Origin: a virus
Lineage: Duplodnaviria; Caudoviricetes
Reading direction: 5' to 3' (one strand)
IMG/VR virus record: IMGVR_UViG_3300049561_000021
Coordinates: 1 to 62,400 of that record
Length of the DNA stretch: 62,400 nucleotides
In this document: in pieces, positions 2,918 to 9,687 of the stretch
How positions within the stretch are numbered: the first letter of the stretch is position 1
Layout of the letters: each line of letters opens with the position of its first letter
The notes under the pieces: generated by a model
Told to the model about the DNA's origin: nothing
The model's database searches: none
Seen by the model: only the letters and a program-made list of their open reading frames with translations
Translations under genes and position numbers: made by a program

Positions 2918-3604
2918 ATGAAAAAAGAAAACGGTTATTTTATTGATGACCAAAATAATAGATGGTCAGAAGAATTCGAATCAGAAGAATCAGCACGGCT
3001 GAAAAGTCTGACATTGATTGAGTGCAAATATTGCACAGAGTGCAGAGATTGCACAGAGTGCAGAGATTGCACAGAGTGCAGAGATTGCAGATATTGCACA
3101 GAGTGCAGAGAGTGCACAGAGTGCAGATATTGCAGATATTGCAAATATTGCACAGATTGCATAGGTTGCACAGAGTGCAGAGAGTGCACAGATTGCAGAT
3201 ATTGCACAGATTGCAGATATTGCACAGATTGCGGATATTGCACAGAGTGCAGAGGTTGCACAGAGTGCACAGATTGCAGAGGTTGCACAGAGTGCAGATA
3301 TTGCACAAATTGCACAGATTGCAGAGAGTGCACAGAGTGCAGATATTGCACAGATTGCAGAGGTTGCAAAAACTACAAAGAAAACCCTCAACGTTTAATC
3401 TCTCCTAAAATTGGTTCAAGAAACGATCAAACTACTGTCTACTGGACTAATAATGAAGACGTTCAAGTAGTCACAGGATGCTTTCGAGGTAACCTCACAC
3501 AGTTTAAGAAGGCTGTGAAAGAAAGGCATGGAGAAAATGAGTATGCACAGCAATACTTAAAATTTATTGAACAAGCAAAATTTAATATTAATTTATGGAT
3601 ATAA
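2918..3604 (+). CDS. (Cys-x-x)39 repeat protein with conserved C-terminal GSR...GCF.G domain
   Basis: 39 consecutive CxxC-phased units, then IGSRNDQTTVYW...GCFRGNLTQF...HGENEYAQQY. Confidence 0.85.
   Translation: MKKENGYFIDDQNNRWSEEFESEESARLKSLTLIECKYCTECRDCTECRDCTECRDCRYCTECRECTECRYCRYCKYCTDCIGCTECRECTDCRYCTDCRYCTDCGYCTECRGCTECTDCRGCTECRYCTNCTDCRECTECRYCTDCRGCKNYKENPQRLISPKIGSRNDQTTVYWTNNEDVQVVTGCFRGNLTQFKKAVKERHGENEYAQQYLKFIEQAKFNINLWI
3023..3373 (+). repeat. 9-bp minisatellite (TGC-ANA-GAN type units), 39 units
   Basis: Units tgcacagag, tgcagagat, tgcagatat, tgcacagat, tgcagaggt in tandem. Confidence 0.95.
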
Positions 3605-4533
3605 TTCGATTATATGAAGATTATTCTATTCCAATAGCTGAACAAGGTAATAAACATTGTACTCCTGGTTGGATAAATACACACTGTCCATTTTGTGAAG
3701 GTACTCAAAATTATCATTTAGGATATAATATGCATTATAATTATTTTACATGTTACAGATGTGGATTTCATTGGATACCTATAACTATTTCTAAACTTCT
3801 TGAAATAAGTGAAACCGAAGCAAAGAAAATATTAAAACAGTATGGGAATACAATATCTCACAAAGAATCTATTGTAAAAATAGGAACTAAACCTTTTAAA
3901 CTACCAAGTAATTCTCTTTCTTTGCAAATAAATCATAAAAAATATTTAGAAAATAGAGGATTTGATCCTGAAAAACTAGAACGAGAATTTGGATTACTTG
4001 GTACAGGTCCAATTAGTAGGATTAAAGATAAAAATTATAATATAGATTACCGATTTCGTATTATAATCCCATTTTATTGGGAAGATAAAATTGTGTCGTT
4101 TGATTCAAGAGACATTACAAATCAGCACATAGCAAAATATATGGCTTGTCCAAAAGATCGCGAAATTATTCCTCACAAATCAATTCTATATATGAGCCGT
4201 TTCTTGCCGCAAGAGCAATTCAAGACTGCAATTTGTGTTGAAGGTCCCTCCGATGTATGGCGTATGGGACGATCTTCATTTGCTACGTCAGGAATTGGGT
4301 TTACTACCGATCAAGTACATATAATATCAAAAATGTCGTTTAAACGAGTCGCAGTAATTTTTGATGGACCTAGCGAAACTTCAAAAGAATTAGAAGCACA
4401 TAATAAAGCAAGTATTCTAATAGGTGAATTAAAATTTAGAGGAATAGATGCTTTTAGAATTAAAATTAAAGGAGATCCAGGATCAATGAAACAGGAAGAT
4501 GCAGATTATTTAGTAAAACAAATATTAACTTAA
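3595..4533 (+). CDS. DNA primase (Zn finger plus TOPRIM)
   Basis: HCPFC...CYRCG zinc domain, RIIIPF, ICVEGPSD, VIFDG, GDPG. Confidence 0.88.
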   Translation: MDIIRLYEDYSIPIAEQGNKHCTPGWINTHCPFCEGTQNYHLGYNMHYNYFTCYRCGFHWIPITISKLLEISETEAKKILKQYGNTISHKESIVKIGTKPFKLPSNSLSLQINHKKYLENRGFDPEKLEREFGLLGTGPISRIKDKNYNIDYRFRIIIPFYWEDKIVSFDSRDITNQHIAKYMACPKDREIIPHKSILYMSRFLPQEQFKTAICVEGPSDVWRMGRSSFATSGIGFTTDQVHIISKMSFKRVAVIFDGPSETSKELEAHNKASILIGELKFRGIDAFRIKIKGDPGSMKQEDADYLVKQILT

Positions 4534-4893: not shown

Positions 4894-5481
4894 ATGAAAA
4901 AAGAAAACAACTATTACGTAGACGAAAGAAACAACAAGTGGGACATGCACTATGAATCAGAAGCATCAGCACGGGTGAAAAGTCTGACGTTGATTAATTG
5001 CACAGAGTGCACAGGTTGCAGAAATTGCAGAGAGTGCACAGGTTGCACAGATTGCACAGATTGCAGATATTGCAGATATTGCAGATATTGCAAATATTGC
5101 AGAAATTGTGCAGGTTGCACAGGTTGCACAGGTTGCACAGAGTGCACAGATTGCAGAGGTTGCACAGAGTGCAGATATTGCACAAATTGCACAGATTGCA
5201 GAGAGTGCACAGAGTGCACAGAGTGCACAGGTTGCACAGGTTGCAAAAACTACAAAGAAAACCCTCAACGTTTAATCTCTCCTAAAATTGGTTCAAGAAA
5301 CGATCAAACTACTGTCTACTGGACTAATAATGAAGACGTTCAAGTAGTCACAGGATGCTTTCGAGGTAACCTCACACAGTTCGAGGAGGCTGTGAAAGAA
5401 AGGCATGGAGAAAATGAGTATGCACAACAATACTTGAAGCTAATTAATATTATAAACTATATAATTAATCAAACTTTATGA
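4894..5481 (+). CDS. (Cys-x-x)28 repeat protein, paralog of 2918..3604
   Basis: Similar N-terminus (MKKENNYYVDE...KSLTLI), 28 Cys units, near-identical C-terminal domain. Confidence 0.85.
   Translation: MKKENNYYVDERNNKWDMHYESEASARVKSLTLINCTECTGCRNCRECTGCTDCTDCRYCRYCRYCKYCRNCAGCTGCTGCTECTDCRGCTECRYCTNCTDCRECTECTECTGCTGCKNYKENPQRLISPKIGSRNDQTTVYWTNNEDVQVVTGCFRGNLTQFEEAVKERHGENEYAQQYLKLINIINYIINQTL
4999..5250 (+). repeat. 9-bp minisatellite, 28 units
   Basis: Largely the same unit set as 3023-3373, in a different order. Confidence 0.95.
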
Positions 5482-5915
5482 AACATACTTTAAAAGGAAT
5501 AACTTCCACAAAAACAGTTTATCTAAATGGAAAGCTGATCAGTCCTGAAGAAATAAAATCTACTCATAAATATGATGTAGCTTCTTTTGACTGGGGAATT
5601 GATAACATCCATTGCACAAAACTTGCAATAGCAATTATGTTAACGTTAACTGACTCAACAACTGGATATAAATCTCTTAAAAACTGCTTACTTTTAAATT
5701 TAAATCAAAAAGAAGATTTTGATATTGAATTTGAACACATAAGTACAGCTCGAAGAAATGCAATGCGAATGGCTCACTCACATAACAAATTTTTAACTAC
5801 AGAATTTCTTATGAAAAAATCAGACAAAGAGCTATGCTGTTTTGTACACCCATTTTATAGAGAAGATTGTGAAATGGAATTAGGACTACGTACTGAAAGA
5901 TTAAAAAGATTATAA
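5478..5915 (+). CDS. hypothetical protein (DUF6166-like FxWG motif)
   Basis: VYLNGK...SFDWG...LAIAIML. Confidence 0.55.
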   Translation: MKHTLKGITSTKTVYLNGKLISPEEIKSTHKYDVASFDWGIDNIHCTKLAIAIMLTLTDSTTGYKSLKNCLLLNLNQKEDFDIEFEHISTARRNAMRMAHSHNKFLTTEFLMKKSDKELCCFVHPFYREDCEMELGLRTERLKRL

Positions 5916-5919
5916 TTTA

Positions 5920-5951
5920 TTTGGAAGTGTAAATTCTATTTTTGATATTTG
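5920..5951 (+). promoter_or_regulatory. Bacteroidota-type sigma70 promoter (-33 TTTG, -7 GATATTTG)
   Basis: TTTG 5920-5923, 20-nt spacer, GATATTTG 5944-5951 (consensus TAnnTTTG, one mismatch). Confidence 0.6.
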
Positions 5952-5960
5952 TAAAATGTT

Positions 5961-6055
5961 TTTGCAATGCGGAGCAAATCAACTCGAACTCATATATTCT
6001 AAATATAGTAACCTGTAAGGGGAGGCGCCGCATCGCTGAACCTTACAGGTTTTTT
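5961..6055 (+). promoter_or_regulatory. Structured leader: two hairpins with complementary loops, the second ending as an intrinsic terminator
   Basis: Stem 1 TTTGC/GCAAA with loop AATGCGGA. Stem 2 AACCTGTAAGG/CCTTACAGGTT with inner GGCG/CGCT and loop CCGCAT. T-tract at 6050-6055. Confidence 0.75.
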
Positions 6056-6071
6056 ATTTAAATTATTCCAT

Positions 6072-6353
6072 ATGAAAAGAACTCATTTTAAATTTCCTGA
6101 TGCCATTAATTGCAGTCCTAAAAAAGATTATATTACAATAAATAAAAAAATATGTGATTTAATATATAATGGAAATTTTAAAAACCCTAGTGACTTAATG
6201 GCTTTACACGTCCTTATTTCTTTTACAGAAAAAATATCAGTTACACAAATAATGTCATATTATAACTGGTCAGAAACAAAAGTAATTAAAACACATAAAC
6301 TCTTAAAAGAAAAAATATGGAAAGAAATAGAGATTTTGCAAAATCTTGTATAG
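6072..6353 (+). CDS. hypothetical protein, possibly winged-HTH
   Basis: 93 aa; pattern ISVTQIMSYYNWSETKVIKTHKLL; upstream of the initiator. Confidence 0.55.
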   Translation: MKRTHFKFPDAINCSPKKDYITINKKICDLIYNGNFKNPSDLMALHVLISFTEKISVTQIMSYYNWSETKVIKTHKLLKEKIWKEIEILQNLV

Positions 6354-7204
6354 TTAATACTCTTCGATCAACAGCATTTCTACCTGTAAATAAAAAGTTA
6401 ATCAAAGAATTAGGAATTATTACTACTGTAATTGTTTGTAATTACATTGATAAAGATACTTTTTTTACTCTTGAAAATCCTAAAAGTGATGGGTGGTTTT
6501 ATTTAACTCACAACCAACAAATGGAAGAATTAAATGTTGGAGATTTTACGATTAGAAAAGTAAAACTTTTCTTAATTGAAAATGGATTTATTCAAACAAA
6601 AAAGAAAGGAATGCCAGCAAAAGAATGGATAAAAATAAATTATAGTAAAATACTTAATTTATTTCAACAAACAATTCCGTTGAAATCAACAAACAATTCC
6701 GTTGAAATCGACGACCATGGTCGTCGAAATCAACGACCATATATAAATAACAAATATATCAATAACAAAAATAACAATAAAATTAAATTACATTCTCCCT
6801 CACAGGAGGAAGCCCCAATTAAAAAACCTCTATCCAAAGAAAGAAACAAAATATACTTACCATTAGCAAATCAATTAGCAGAAATAATCACTTCCAATAA
6901 AAATATGCACCATACTCCATCTCAAATAGAAGCATGGGCAAATGAAATTAGACATATTGTAGAAACATCCAAAATATCTATTGAGCGTGTAGAAAAGGTT
7001 CTTTCATGGTATGAAAATAATTATGGAGGAAAATACATTCCAGTAGTTGAATCAGGTGCTTCATTGCGTGAAAAATTTCTTAGATTAGAAGCAGCTATGC
7101 AAAAAAATGGCTATAAAGATACTGGTTTAAATAAAAAAGCATATCAAAGTGCATTAACTAGTGATTTTCGAAATACAGATGAATGTATAACTAATATTAA
7201 ATAG
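6317..7204 (+). CDS. Phage replication initiator (lambda O-like organisation)
   Basis: N-terminal wHTH-like region (DGWFYLT...EEL...LIENGFI...GMPAK), internal iterons, C-terminal SGASLREKF domain; followed by a DnaC-like loader. Confidence 0.75.
   Translation: MERNRDFAKSCIVNTLRSTAFLPVNKKLIKELGIITTVIVCNYIDKDTFFTLENPKSDGWFYLTHNQQMEELNVGDFTIRKVKLFLIENGFIQTKKKGMPAKEWIKINYSKILNLFQQTIPLKSTNNSVEIDDHGRRNQRPYINNKYINNKNNNKIKLHSPSQEEAPIKKPLSKERNKIYLPLANQLAEIITSNKNMHHTPSQIEAWANEIRHIVETSKISIERVEKVLSWYENNYGGKYIPVVESGASLREKFLRLEAAMQKNGYKDTGLNKKAYQSALTSDFRNTDECITNIK
6664..6790. repeat. Putative replication origin: 22-bp iterons, 20-bp palindrome and AT-rich tract
   Basis: tcaacaaacaattccgttgaaa at 6664-6685 and 6686-6707; perfect palindrome tcgacgaccatggtcgtcga 6708-6727; partial fourth unit at 6730; then an A/T-rich run. 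Confidence 0.75.
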
Positions 7205-7205
7205 T

Positions 7206-7790
7206 ATGAAAGAAGTAAATAATTTTATGAAAAGATGGCCAGAGGAAGAGCCTTTCTTTTACACCAAAGTGCTTTCTTTATTTCCATATATTGTTGGAAA
7301 AGCTTTACAAAAATTACCATTTCCAAAAGAATTAGAGAAAGGTATAGGTGAAGGGCAATACATTTGGGGACCTAATGGAACAGGGAAAACAGTGTATGCA
7401 GCATTTATGTTAGTTTCAGAGATAAAAAGTGAATTTGATTTAAAAAATAATATTTTTATCTCTTCTGTTGAATTACTTTCAAAGTTTAGAAGCAGCTATG
7501 TCAAAAATTCTTCTGAAAGTGAAATTGAAATTTTAGATAGATATAGTAAAGCAAATATATTAGTATTAGACGATTTTGGAGTTGAAAAATCAACCGAGTG
7601 GGCTTATCAAATGCTTTATTTGTTAATCAATAGGCGGTATGAAAACATGCTAACTACGATTTTCACTTCTAATTTAACATTAGGTGAGTTAGGTGAAAAA
7701 TTAGGAGATAATCGAATTCCATCAAGAATACAAGGTATGAGCAAAATAATAAATATGGCAGGAAACGACTTTAGAGCAGAAAGATTATGA
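7206..7790 (+). CDS. DnaC/IstB-like AAA+ helicase loader
   Basis: WGPNGTGKT, LVLDDFG, LINRRYE, TIFTSN, RIPSRI. Confidence 0.9.
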   Translation: MKEVNNFMKRWPEEEPFFYTKVLSLFPYIVGKALQKLPFPKELEKGIGEGQYIWGPNGTGKTVYAAFMLVSEIKSEFDLKNNIFISSVELLSKFRSSYVKNSSESEIEILDRYSKANILVLDDFGVEKSTEWAYQMLYLLINRRYENMLTTIFTSNLTLGELGEKLGDNRIPSRIQGMSKIINMAGNDFRAERL

Positions 7791-8155
7791 AAGAACGATT
7801 AGTAACATTAGAAACAGCTAAATTAGCTAAAGAAAAAGGATTTAACTGGCCTTGTAATGACTATCATAATAAAAGAGATGGAAATTATATATCAAGTGAA
7901 ACCATTATGATAAGTTATCATGATTATAATTCTCAAATTAACAACACCTCTCTTCCGACACAATCTTCACTCCAAAAATGGCTAAGAGAAGTGCATACTA
8001 TTTATATTAATATTAGATATTACTGTCATCCAGAAGAGGGATTTGAGGTTGGTCTTTTTCCTGAAAATATGGATGTTGTACATTTATATGATTTTAAAAC
8101 TTATGAAGAAGCATTAGAAATCGGATTACAAGAAGCATTAAAGTTAATTAAATGA
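7787..8155 (+). CDS. hypothetical protein of a type I associate with Bacteroidota phages
   Basis: ETAKLAKEKGF...PTQSSLQKWLREVH...YEEALEIGL. Confidence 0.7.
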   Translation: MKERLVTLETAKLAKEKGFNWPCNDYHNKRDGNYISSETIMISYHDYNSQINNTSLPTQSSLQKWLREVHTIYINIRYYCHPEEGFEVGLFPENMDVVHLYDFKTYEEALEIGLQEALKLIK

Positions 8156-9687
8156 TTGAACGCCGCTTAATTACAGGATTGATAGTTTCCACAGATTTTA
8201 TTCAACAATTGCAAGGTAAATGGGATTTATCATTGTTTGAATCACCTACGGCAAAACGCATTGCTTCGTGGTGTTTGGACTTTTTTAATAAATACAACAA
8301 AGCACCTGGGAAAGAAATAACTCCAATATTCTATCAAAAAGTAAAAAATGGTTTACCTAAAAATTTAGTAAGTGATATTGAAGATATTTTAGACGGTCTA
8401 TCACAAGAGTTTGAAAAAGATAGCATAAATGTTAATTACTTAGTTGATGAAGCAATAACTTATTTCAATGAGCAACATTTACGAAAGCATACAGAAAAAA
8501 TAAACGGTCTAATTGAAACTGGGCAATTATTTGAAGCACAAAAAGAAGCATTATCATTTAAACCTATTTCAAAAGAATCAGGAAATTGGATTGATTTGAG
8601 TAATGAATCTGTGCTTGAAAAAATAGAAAAAGCATTTACAACTTCCAACGAGGTTCTTATTAAATTTCCTGGAGCACTTGGTCGTTTTTGGAATGATCAA
8701 ATGGTTAGGGATGGGTTTGTTGCTATAATGGCTTCTGAAAAAAGAGGGAAGAGTTGGGTATTACTTGAATTAGCAATTAGGTCTGCAAAACAAAAACGAA
8801 AAGTAGCTTTTTTCCAAGCAGGTGATATGACTGAAGGGCAGCAATTAAAAAGAATAGCTGTTCATCTTGCAAAAAAGTCAAATCTTGAAAAATTTTCTGG
8901 AAAGATGTTTGAGCCTGTTAAAGACTGTATATTTAATCAAACTGGAAAATGTACAAGAGAAGAATGCAGAGGAGATTATGGGGTATTTGAGAAATTAAGT
9001 CCAGATTTTATTAGAAATGAAATAACAATCAGTGAACTTAAAAAAGCTTTTAAAGAAAACTCAGATTATATTCCTTGTGGAATTTGTGAAGATTTTGAAA
9101 GAAATAGTTGGGGGACACCTTGGCTAAAAGAAATTAATATAAAATATCCTTTAGAAAGCAATGAAGCAAAGGAAGTGATTTCAAAGTTCTTTATCAAATA
9201 CAAACGACAATTTAAATTATCAACACATCCTAATGGAACGTTAACAATACGAAAAGCAAAAACAATACTCGATATATGGGAAAAAGAAGATGGATTTATG
9301 CCTGATATTATTTTTTTTGATTATCCAGATATTATGGATGATGAAACAGTCAAAGAGTTTCGCCATAAGCAAAATAAAATATGGATGGATGGTCGTGGGT
9401 TGTCACAAGAAAGACATGCATTAGTTATTTGGGTTACACAGACAGATGCAGATGCTTATACAAAGAATTTAGTTAAAATGGAAAACTTTTCAGAAGATAA
9501 ACGAAAGTATGCTCACCCTACTGCTTTTTATGCATTAAATCAAGATAAAGATGGGCGTGAAAAAGCATTAGGCATTATGAGAATCAATGAGATTGTAATC
9601 AGAGAAGGTGAGTTTGATAATAATCATCAAGTGCATATTTTACAGAATTTAAAGAGAGGGTTGCCTTTTCTTACTTCATATTGGTGA
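8152..9687 (+). CDS. DnaB-like replicative helicase with Cys-rich insertion
   Basis: Walker A ASEKRGKS, IFFDYPDIM, WVTQ, FSEDKRK; follows the loader. Confidence 0.8.
   Translation: MIERRLITGLIVSTDFIQQLQGKWDLSLFESPTAKRIASWCLDFFNKYNKAPGKEITPIFYQKVKNGLPKNLVSDIEDILDGLSQEFEKDSINVNYLVDEAITYFNEQHLRKHTEKINGLIETGQLFEAQKEALSFKPISKESGNWIDLSNESVLEKIEKAFTTSNEVLIKFPGALGRFWNDQMVRDGFVAIMASEKRGKSWVLLELAIRSAKQKRKVAFFQAGDMTEGQQLKRIAVHLAKKSNLEKFSGKMFEPVKDCIFNQTGKCTREECRGDYGVFEKLSPDFIRNEITISELKKAFKENSDYIPCGICEDFERNSWGTPWLKEINIKYPLESNEAKEVISKFFIKYKRQFKLSTHPNGTLTIRKAKTILDIWEKEDGFMPDIIFFDYPDIMDDETVKEFRHKQNKIWMDGRGLSQERHALVIWVTQTDADAYTKNLVKMENFSEDKRKYAHPTAFYALNQDKDGREKALGIMRINEIVIREGEFDNNHQVHILQNLKRGLPFLTSYW

What the first reader, a model, noticed from the sequence alone, without database searches (positions are those of the whole stretch)
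5961..6055. Kissing-loop RNA leader with terminator upstream of the replication initiator operon
Seen: just after a Bacteroidota-type promoter, hairpin 1 (TTTGC-AATGCGGA-GCAAA) exposes ATGCGG (5967-5972). Hairpin 2 (11-bp outer stem, inner GGCG/CGCT) exposes exactly the hexaloop CCGCAT (6028-6033), its perfect complement, and ends in a T-tract. GC-rich complementary loops in such AT-rich DNA are unlikely by chance. Known analogy: RNA-based attenuation control in P4 (CI) and P1 (c4). Inference: a pseudoknotted attenuator or small RNA that gates the initiator, loader and helicase genes.
Basis: partly seen in the sequence, partly recalled or inferred. Interest (0 to 1): 0.7.

Follow-up and report, generated by a model that had tools for sequence, protein, structure and literature searches.

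The report
Kissing-loop terminator leader before phage initiator
A short structured RNA, in which the loop of a small hairpin pairs with the top loop of a terminator hairpin, sits just before the replication-initiator gene of this uncultured phage and about 35 relatives, and matches no catalogued RNA family.

Summary
H1 is 5961-5978, with ATGCGG in its loop. H2 is 6010-6051, with an 11-bp outer stem, a 4-bp inner stem and the hexaloop CCGCAT, followed by a T-tract. In this one sequence the 6-nt match is only suggestive. A crude detector found many such matches on both strands.

Comparison settles the structure. I found about 35 distinct homologous leaders in uncultured phage contigs, all on the strand of the replication genes and one per genome. 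H1, both tiers of H2 and the loop-loop helix all covary. More than 30 different loop sequences stay complementary. In an out-of-sample set, found with a model that does not encode the loop pairing, 12 of 12 had a 6-8 nt complement of their own L2 upstream. Deranged pairings averaged 0.54.

A Bacteroidota-type promoter precedes H1. A U-tract follows H2 in 34 of 36 rows. The initiator ATG lies 13-28 nt after H2 in 28 of 34. Rfam has no match.

There is no antiterminator helix and no conserved leader peptide. I read it as a promoter-proximal attenuator that also yields a roughly 100-nt RNA. The function is inferred, not shown.

The parts
5920..5923 (+). -33-like TTTG of the promoter, inside the block ATAATTTATTTGGAAGT (5912-5928) that is identical in the closest relative
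   Evidence: the 17-mer is shared with L003/L139
5937..5951 (+). -7 box region. GATATTTG (5944-5951) is homologous to TATATTTG of L139 and lies 20 nt after TTTG. A perfect TAnnTTTG match, TATTTTTG (5937-5944), overlaps it. The predicted start is about 5949-5957.
   Evidence: consensus and its position (-12 to -5) from PMC9723704 passages
5961..5978 (+). Hairpin H1: 5-bp stem TTTGC/GCAAA and octaloop AATGCGGA. The kissing bases ATGCGG are at 5967-5972.
   Evidence: H1 helix covaries
5979..6009 (+). Linker of 31 nt. In the family it is 24-62 nt and often U-rich.
6010..6051 (+). Two-tier hairpin H2. Outer stem 6010-6020/6041-6051. 5' internal loop GGA 6021-6023. Inner stem 6024-6027/6034-6037. 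Hexaloop CCGCAT 6028-6033 (partner of 5967-5972). 3' internal loop GAA 6038-6040.
   Evidence: both tiers covary
6050..6059 (+). U-tract TTTTTTATTT directly after H2 (intrinsic-terminator signature)
   Evidence: conserved in 34 of 36 aligned rows against 5.2% background
6072..6353 (+). First ORF after the leader (93 aa, MKRTHFKFP...). It has no family hit. Its N-terminus resembles the M-x-R-T-K start of the initiators in relatives.
6317..7204 (+). Replication initiator / DnaD-like helicase-loader ORF (295 aa)
   Evidence: phrog_2514, phrog_9773, phrog_4880, phrog_428
6664..6780 (.). 22-bp iteron-like tandem repeats (6664-6739) followed by an AT-rich stretch (6739-6780) inside the initiator ORF. 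This is a probable origin, reached by transcription that passes the leader.
7206..7790 (+). DnaC-like helicase loader
8152..9687 (+). DnaB-like replicative helicase

Best explanation
Window 5912-6060 encodes a promoter-proximal leader RNA of about 95-110 nt on the + strand. A Bacteroidota-type sigma-A promoter starts transcription a few bases before H1. The H1 loop (ATGCGG) pairs with the apical hexaloop (CCGCAT) of the two-tier hairpin H2. This gives one compact, probably coaxially stacked, kissing-loop fold, with the linker running back along H2. H2 carries a purine-rich internal loop, which is sarcin-ricin-like AGUA/GAA in most relatives and GGA/GAA here. H2 is followed at once by a U-tract, so it has the anatomy of an intrinsic terminator.

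The initiator ATG follows within about 20 nt, with no room for another promoter. Every transcript of the initiator, and of the origin-like iterons inside it, must therefore read through this terminator. I conclude that the element works in cis as a leaky or factor-modulated attenuator. It would set how much transcription enters the replication module, and it releases a stable, kissing-locked short RNA as its terminated product.

Shown: the sequence features, their conservation, and covariation of all four helices including the loop-loop helix. Inferred: transcription start, termination, read-through and any regulation. The role of the kiss is not known. It may organise a binding surface, tune termination efficiency or stabilise the RNA.
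For: Structure:
- The kissing helix has changes on both sides at 6 of 6 pairs, and 87.6% of cells are paired in 23 distinct rows.
- In the second alignment it is 6 of 6 pairs and 86.3% in 19 distinct rows.
- The whole structure is 88.5% and 91.4% paired, against 63.5% and 62.1% in shuffles (0 of 500). Slid controls give 34-45%.
- The covariance model contained no loop-loop pairs, so that helix is not fitted.

Cognate against non-cognate loops:
- 15 of 20 members have a complement of 6 nt or more to their own L2 within 130 nt upstream. Derangements average 0.53, maximum 5.
- In the out-of-sample set it is 12 of 12, against a mean of 0.54 and maximum of 5.

Strand:
- All model hits at E <= 1 are on the gene strand: 26 of 26, 27 of 27 and 23 of 23.
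- G.U pairs occur in the stems, and a few cells of the kissing helix are G.U.

Terminator anatomy: 34 of 36 rows have 6 or more T in an 8-nt window after H2, against 5.2% background. The T-run is 5 or longer in 30 of 36.

Promoter: a TAnnTTT[GA] box lies 24-33 nt before H1 in most of the 15 of 20 members where the script found a box (16-46 nt in all).

Position: the ATG lies 13-28 nt after H2 in 28 of 34. There is one copy per phage record in 5 of 5, and one in the window.

Context: the genes downstream are initiator, loader and helicase, with iterons inside the initiator gene.
Against: - No RNA evidence exists. The only listed run is a DNA run.
- No cognate-specific pairing of upstream leader sequence with either arm of the H2 outer stem was found: 0 of 22 and 1 of 22 fell below the 5th percentile of non-cognate pairs. 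Only 22 of 36 rows could be scored. The usual terminator/antiterminator switch is therefore absent, and nothing shows how read-through would be regulated.
- The kiss leaves the 9-13 bp outer stem and the U-tract untouched, so it need not affect termination at all.
- In L004 and L166 the initiator starts 127-138 nt after H2 and has its own promoter-like box in between. There the RNA looks like a stand-alone gene.
- L144, a relative, has the promoter and initiator but no leader.
- A few members (L139, L141, L143) have interrupted U-tracts.
Confidence: 0.5

Rival explanations
1. It is a stand-alone small RNA gene (promoter, kissing-locked body, terminator). Its product acts in trans, for instance as a protein-binding or decoy RNA tied to replication, or through its loops on other copies of itself. 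Its position before the initiator would reflect module synteny rather than cis control.
For: Promoter plus terminator delimit a unit of about 100 nt in every member. In L004 a second hairpin with a T-tract and a TATATTTG box lie between H2 and the initiator. In L166 a TTTG-N21-TATTTTTG box lies there. In L169 the ATG is 91 nt away. Extra hairpins can be inserted in the linker without loss of H1, H2 or the kiss (L160, L191). Most members carry a sarcin-ricin-like internal loop, a common protein or RNA docking module (20 of 36).
Against: In 28 of 34 members the ATG follows H2 by 13-28 nt, a tight spacing not expected for an independent gene. No extended complementarity to other sites was seen in the window; the hexamers elsewhere (22918, 29829, 53420) have no flanking match. 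The loops are already paired to each other.
Confidence: 0.25
2. It is a protein-recognised operator in the 5' UTR. One possibility is translational or transcriptional autoregulation by the initiator or another phage protein. Another is a cis-acting element that modifies RNA polymerase (put-like processive antitermination). In either case the kissing complex and the internal loop form the binding surface.
For: The shape is conserved while the sequence is free to vary, as for structure-specific binders. H2 sits 13-28 nt before the ATG in 28 of 34. That is next to the A/U-rich start region, which tunes initiation in Bacteroidota that lack Shine-Dalgarno sites (PMC6847099, abstract in the listing). 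No antiterminator helix exists, so any regulation would need a factor. The downstream proteins are mostly one transitively related group (32 of 34 in one blastp cluster), so a shared binder is possible.
Against: No protein partner is identified and none was tested. The analogies (put, Rop, T4 gp32) are recalled, not tested. The window and L158 have a different short first ORF.
Confidence: 0.15
3. It is a DNA-level element. The two complementary hexamers would be inverted protein-binding sites, or the hairpins would form in single-stranded DNA at an origin.
For: It lies in the replication module. L006 has a third, direct copy of its repeat. G.T pairs are also tolerated in single-stranded DNA.
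Against: The sites are always presented in loops of covarying hairpins. Stems hold G.U pairs valid only on the + strand. A promoter lies upstream and a U-tract downstream in nearly all members. Separate iterons exist inside the initiator gene.
Confidence: 0.04
4. It is an ordinary intrinsic terminator of the upstream operon, and the loop complementarity is chance.
For: In the window alone a 6-nt match is weak evidence.
Against: Covariation and the cognate against non-cognate tests.
Confidence: 0.02

Closest known systems
Leader attenuators of replication-initiator genes in plasmids (pT181 repC, pIP501 repR; recalled from memory)
   Same: An intrinsic terminator sits in the leader just before the initiator gene. 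Loop-loop (kissing) contacts start the regulatory pairing.
   Different: There the kiss is between the leader and a counter-transcript from the opposite strand, and it switches between pre-emptor and terminator helices. Here both loops are in the same + strand RNA. Nothing points to a structured antisense product: stems carry G.U pairs valid only on the + strand, and all model hits at E <= 1 are on the + strand. No antiterminator helix was found.
P1/P7 c4 and P4 CI immunity RNAs
   Same: Small structured phage RNAs made from the leader of the operon they control. Their complementary loop and target pairs covary between related phages.
   Different: Their targets lie downstream at a ribosome-binding site or flanking sites, and they cause repression or termination there. 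Here the partner is an upstream hairpin loop. No Rfam hit was found.
Zipper-type attenuator of the pLS20 conjugation operon (PMC13401043, abstract read)
   Same: A leader with an upstream weak stem-loop that is complementary to a downstream terminator region, placed before the first genes of a long mobile-element operon.
   Different: In pLS20 the complementarity covers the terminator arms and forms an antiterminator. Here only the loops pair and the terminator stem stays free.
Kissing-loop aptamers such as purine riboswitches, and intermolecular loop pairs of phi29 pRNA (recalled)
   Same: Two hairpin loops hold a compact fold, or an oligomer, through 4-7 Watson-Crick pairs that covary.
   Different: There is no three-way junction and no highly conserved pocket here. 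One kissing partner is the terminator hairpin itself. The genomic position differs from pRNA.
Sarcin-ricin (loop E, bulged-G) internal loop, AGUA/GAA (PMC1865062, passages)
   Same: 20 of 36 aligned rows have AGUA on the 5' side and GAA on the 3' side between the two tiers of H2.
   Different: The window has GGA/GAA (aligned as GGGA/GAA), a variant. GGAG-GAA and GGAA-GAA are listed only among the relaxed derivations in that paper. The 3D form is untested.

Membership tests
Intrinsic (Rho-independent) terminator | Stable G+C-containing hairpin on the transcribed strand | tested here: met
   H2 is -22.2 kcal/mol with an 11-bp outer stem. It covaries in the family.
Intrinsic (Rho-independent) terminator | U-tract directly after the stem | tested here: met
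   TTTTTTATTT at 6050-6059. 34 of 36 rows are U-rich against 5.2% background.
Intrinsic (Rho-independent) terminator | RNA 3' ends actually form there | not testable with these tools
   No RNA run is listed.
Any Rfam 15 family (including C4 antisense RNA, riboswitches, ribozymes) | Match to the covariance model | tested here: not met
   Nothing overlaps the leader at E <= 10 with a meaningful score (window) or at E <= 1 in 10 other loci. The only overlaps were an rli38 hit in the window (5896-6058, 21.8 bits against a gathering score of 49, E 2.8) and a mir-5928 hit on both strands of the L012-type leader (29 bits against 59). I take both as noise.
Two-state terminator/antiterminator attenuator (riboswitch-type expression platform) | Upstream segment able to pair with a terminator arm, conserved by covariation | tested here: not met
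   Cognate duplex energies are no better than non-cognate: 0 of 22 and 1 of 22 beyond the 5th percentile. 14 of 36 rows were not scorable.
Leader-peptide (ribosome-mediated) attenuation | Conserved short ORF in the leader | tested here: not met
   ATG-started frames differ in length, frame and stop position. L139 and L149 have none.
Counter-transcript (antisense RNA) control of rep genes | Structured RNA from the opposite strand | tested here: inconclusive
   G.U pairs would be A.C on the other strand. All model hits at E <= 1 are on the + strand. Antisense promoters were not searched systematically.
P1 c4 / P4 CI type immunity RNA | Loops complementary to sites at or flanking the downstream gene's start region | tested here: not met
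   The only complement near the leader is in H1, upstream.
Sarcin-ricin internal loop | AGUA (or GGUA) opposite GAA (or AAA) | tested here: inconclusive
   Met in 20 of 36 rows. The window itself has GGA/GAA. The fold was not tested.
Bacteroidota sigma-A promoter | TAnnTTTG at -12 to -5, with TTTG near -33 | tested here: met
   Window: TTTG at 5920-5923, GATATTTG at 5944-5951 (7 of 8 positions), and TATTTTTG at 5937-5944. A TAnnTTT[GA] box was found in 15 of 20 members. The consensus comes from PMC9723704 passages. The start site is not mapped.

The most novel reading that the evidence does not exclude
The loops may not, or not only, pair within one molecule. Terminated leader RNAs would then pair through L1 and L2 with nascent leaders, or with each other as dimers or rings as in phi29 pRNA. 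The amount of leader RNA would feed back on read-through into the initiator gene and origin. That would be a sense-RNA, kissing-based dosage control of phage replication, and the free variation of the loop pairs would make it phage-specific. A second, differently wired leader stands before initiators of other phages (L007, L010, L012). It has two long-range pairings into the terminator interior, which would make this a general design principle.
Probability: 0.1. Interest if true: 0.85.

Novelty: new variant of a known kind. Interest (0 to 1): 0.62.

Why it matters
Phage replication modules of uncultured Bacteroidota-type phages have no described RNA control. Here a roughly 100-nt RNA is defined by strong covariation in about 35 phages. 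It has an architecture I could not find described: a terminator hairpin whose apical loop kisses an upstream hairpin, with a sarcin-ricin-like internal loop and no antiterminator. It gives a concrete object for testing how tertiary structure on top of a terminator affects termination, RNA stability or factor binding. It also gives a handle on how these phages dose their initiator and the transcription that crosses the origin. The set of more than 30 orthogonal loop pairs on one scaffold could also serve RNA design. If it proves to be only a structured leaky terminator, the finding is a new RNA motif family of modest reach.

Tried and rejected
- **Rfam.** No family matched.
- **Close DNA relatives in GenBank phages.** Only short unrelated matches were found. 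The primase has at most 28% identity to cultured phages, so no cultured system exists.
- **Exact pattern of the H2 outer stem in IMG/VR.** 0 hits.
- **17-mer promoter block in IMG/VR.** 51 stretches were found, and only the L003 contig is related.
- **Upstream-gene relatives.** L019-L023 from metagenome and viral scans have no such leader.
- **Crude hairpin and complement detector.** It was too noisy (122 hits). I replaced it with a shape scan and covariance models.
- **Whole-interior complement test.** The background was high because GAAA internal loops match U-rich linkers. The result was 18 of 20 against a mean of 3.66 and a maximum of 11. I replaced it with the apical-loop test.
- **Leader peptide.** Rejected.
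- **Antiterminator helix.** Not found.
- **'The downstream proteins are unrelated, so autoregulation is unlikely.'** Rejected, because 32 of 34 fall in one single-linkage cluster.
- **Trans targets of the loops in the window.** None has flanking complementarity.
- **Sequencing runs.** No RNA holder is listed. One DNA run from a freshwater sediment metagenome may be the source.
- **Literature.** Searches and the passages of PMC10690425 showed no description of this motif. That paper's lists of 8,495 IMG/VR candidate RNAs are in supplements that I could not open, so the motif or its terminator half may be listed there.
- **Relatives without a hit.**
  - Among the 52 primase loci, 23 had a model hit at E <= 1. 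L160 scored E 0.79; its twin L161, whose leader is identical, had no hit at E <= 1 and was not.
  - Among the 80 initiator loci, 23 had a hit.
  - L144 lacks the leader.
  - For L140, L168, L172 and L187 the upstream stretch I guessed showed none, but my start estimates there are rough.

Full report
**What is in the window**

The window is a 62.4-kb IMG/VR virus record, about 30% G+C and estimated 85% complete. The finding lies in the 156-nt gap between a 145-aa ORF (5478-5915) and a 93-aa ORF (6072-6353). Upstream are a primase (3595-4533) and three ORFs of unknown function. Downstream are a DnaD/O-like initiator (6317-7204), a DnaC-like loader (7206-7790), a small ORF and a DnaB-like helicase (8152-9687).

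- H1 is TTTGC / AATGCGGA / GCAAA at 5961-5978.
- H2 has a perfect 11-bp outer stem at 6010-6020 and 6041-6051.
- The inner stem GGCG/CGCT closes the hexaloop CCGCAT at 6028-6033.
- T6 starts at 6050.

The minimum-energy fold of 5945-6062 contains H2 but replaces H1 with another weak hairpin. Folded from 5957 it contains both. H1 alone is worth -2.8 kcal/mol, H2 -22.2 and the loop-loop duplex -9.7.

**Is it more than chance?**

From the window alone, not clearly. The two hexamers occur at the expected genome-wide frequency: 3 and 2 copies against 3.8 and 4.5 expected. A permissive search for 'large hairpin plus T-tract plus upstream complementary loop' returned 122 hits on both strands of the loci then in hand, mostly A/T-rich. 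The case rests on homologues.

**Homologues**

The DnaC-like protein led to one close relative, L003 (the same contig as L139), with 83% protein identity. Its intergenic region keeps the promoter block and the shape, but its sequences differ. H1 is TAGATA-GTGCCA-TATCTA and the H2 loop is CGGCAC, so GTGCC pairs with GGCAC.

An alignment of DnaC-like proteins (A4) and one of primases (A5) brought in 80 and 52 loci. A shape scan that ignores the upstream region then found the same two-tier hairpin in many primase-linked loci. It required an outer stem, a purine internal loop, an inner stem, a loop, '..GAA' and a T-tail. In each case a perfect complement of the apical loop lay 24-62 nt upstream inside a small hairpin.

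I built a covariance model of H2 (R1) and one of H1 plus H2 without any loop-loop pairs (R2). They found 26 and 27 matches at E <= 1 in 577 kb and 906 kb searched on both strands, all on the gene strand. L160/L161 and a GTDB contig (L191) are members with an extra hairpin and U-tract inserted in the linker. That makes 23 distinct leaders.

**Tests of the kissing helix**

Using apical loops defined by RNAfold of the H2 interior alone, 15 of 20 members carry a Watson-Crick complement of 6 nt or more to their own loop within their own 130 nt upstream. In 20,000 derangements the mean was 0.53 and the maximum 5.

On the model-made alignment A9 (27 rows, 23 distinct) I added the six loop-loop pairs as a pseudoknot:
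- All six have changes on both sides and 87.6% of cells pair.
- The whole structure pairs in 88.5% of cells against 63.5% in shuffles (0 of 500).
- With the partner slid by 1-3 columns the figure is 34-45%.
- Some rows (L139, L141, L149, L151, L158, L162) are out of register in H1 or L2 and count as broken, so the figures are conservative.

As an out-of-sample test I used the last viral scan on an alignment of the downstream initiators (A10). R2 hit 23 of the 80 new loci, all on the + strand and ending just before the initiator match. Twelve of them are leaders from contigs not seen before. All 12 have a 6-8-nt perfect complement of their L2 upstream, against a derangement mean of 0.54 and maximum of 5. 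On that alignment (A11) the pseudoknot again has 6 of 6 covarying pairs and 86.3% of cells paired.

Over the roughly 35 leaders, more than 30 different loop pairs occur. Examples are ATGCGG/CCGCAT, TGGTGG/CCACCA, AGACCG/CGGTCT, AAGCTAC/GTAGCTT, AGATGGG/CCCATCT and AATACGGC/GCCGTATT. L151 pairs CCACCG with TGGTGG through a G.U (my reading). G.U pairs are frequent in the stems. This places the structure on the + strand RNA rather than in duplex DNA or an antisense transcript.

**Other conserved features**

- A TAnnTTT[GA] box was found before H1 in 15 of 20 members, and it lies 24-33 nt before H1 in most of them (16-46 nt in all). This box sits at -12 to -5 of sigma-A promoters in Flavobacterium (PMC9723704, passages). 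In the window TTTG (5920-5923) is followed after 20 nt by GATATTTG (5944-5951), which aligns with TATATTTG of L139. A perfect TATTTTTG overlaps at 5937-5944.
- H1 stems are often CATG/CATG, and L1 is commonly NNNGCGGA.
- Linkers are 24-62 nt and often U-rich. The minimum of 24 nt fits an intramolecular kiss in which the linker must run the length of H2. This is my inference.
- Between the two tiers of H2, 20 of 36 distinct aligned rows have AGUA opposite GAA. That is the classical sarcin-ricin internal-loop sequence (PMC1865062, passages). The window has GGA/GAA.
- 34 of 36 rows have 6 or more T in an 8-nt window after H2, against 5.2% of random 15-mers from the same loci. The T-run is 5 or longer in 30 of 36.
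- The next ORF is an initiator-like protein of about 240-300 aa, often starting M-x-R-T-K. In the window and L158 it is a short ORF followed by the initiator. Its ATG lies 13-28 nt after H2 in 28 of 34 (H2 ends of the 12 newest members are approximated from the model hit).
- There is one copy per phage record in 5 of 5 whole records, one of them a complete 69.7-kb genome, and one in the window.

**What it is not**

- No Rfam 15 family matches.
- There is no conserved leader ORF.
- No leader segment pairs specifically with either arm of the outer stem (22 of 36 rows scorable). It is therefore not a classical two-state attenuator, and not the zipper type recently described for pLS20 (PMC13401043, abstract).
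- It does not fit P1 c4 or P4 CI, whose targets lie downstream (recalled).

**How it probably works**

In most members there is no room for a promoter between H2 and the ATG. All transcription of the initiator, whether from the conserved promoter in front of H1 or from further upstream, must therefore pass a hairpin-plus-U-tract. The initiator must be made, so termination there has to be partial or relieved by something. That is attenuation in the broad sense.

In the window the initiator ORF also holds 22-bp iteron-like repeats (6664-6739) and an A/T-rich stretch (6739-6780), a probable origin. The same read-through would therefore cross the origin.

The kiss does not touch the outer stem, so I cannot say whether it raises, lowers or leaves unchanged the termination efficiency. 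It may build a rigid stacked body that a factor recognises by shape. It may hinder entry of the hairpin into the polymerase exit channel. It may make the terminated RNA long-lived.

The main rival is a stand-alone small RNA. L004 and L166 support it, because there the initiator lies more than 120 nt away behind its own promoter-like box. L144 shows that the leader is dispensable in a relative. No RNA data are available and no cultured relative exists.

**Novelty and limits**

Within Rfam 15 and the literature I could search, I found no described RNA in which a terminator's apical loop kisses an upstream hairpin before a phage initiator gene.

The host is unknown. The promoter type points to Bacteroidota. 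The one GTDB contig that carries a member is labelled Nitrospiraceae, which I cannot evaluate.

The E-values of my models are rough. The alignments were fitted to H1 and H2 but not to the kiss. All functional statements are inference.

Noticed in passing
L007 about 2150-2250; L010 about 1866-1965 (L011 identical); L012 about 2445-2545: A second, differently wired leader stands before the initiator operon of other DnaC-linked phages. A small hairpin loop pairs with an unpaired 3' segment inside a long terminator hairpin: GGTCGCGC/GCGCGACC in L007 and L010, GTCACG/CGTGAC in L012. The linker also pairs with the loop of an inner hairpin: TCGGTT/AACCGA, and CCAGAA/TTCTGG in L012. Both pairings covary between L010 and L012. 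Rfam gave only a sub-threshold miRNA hit.
   Followed up: partly
window 6664-6780: About 3.5 copies of a 22-bp unit (TCAACAAACAATTCCGTTGAAA and variants) are followed by an A/T-rich stretch, inside the initiator ORF 6317-7204. This looks like an iteron-type origin placed within the initiator gene, as in lambda O.
   Followed up: partly
window 6072-6353 and 6317-7204: In the window and in L078/L158 the gene after the leader is a short ORF (93 and 113 aa) that overlaps the start of the initiator ORF. Most relatives have a single 240-300-aa initiator starting right after the leader. I did not resolve whether this is a split gene, a programmed shift or a separate gene.
   Followed up: no
L006 1370-1480: This leader-like region has the loop/terminator complement CGTAATA/TATTACG plus a third, direct copy (ACGTAATATTAT) in a further hairpin just before the initiator. 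It could be protein-binding repeats rather than, or as well as, an RNA fold.
   Followed up: no
L173 8146-8240: The initiator frame after the leader stops early (MERTNY...) and resumes from an internal TTG. The gene seems broken in this contig, or there is a sequencing error.
   Followed up: no
L157 3023-3295 and L163 4010-4222: Sub-threshold Rfam matches to isrG (38 and 32 bits against a gathering score of 100) fall in the region between the primase and the leader. They are probably noise, but they recur in two relatives.
   Followed up: no
L160 6020-6050 and L191 6200-6255: An extra hairpin followed by its own U-tract is inserted in the linker between H1 and H2, giving two terminator-like signals in tandem within one leader.
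   Followed up: partly
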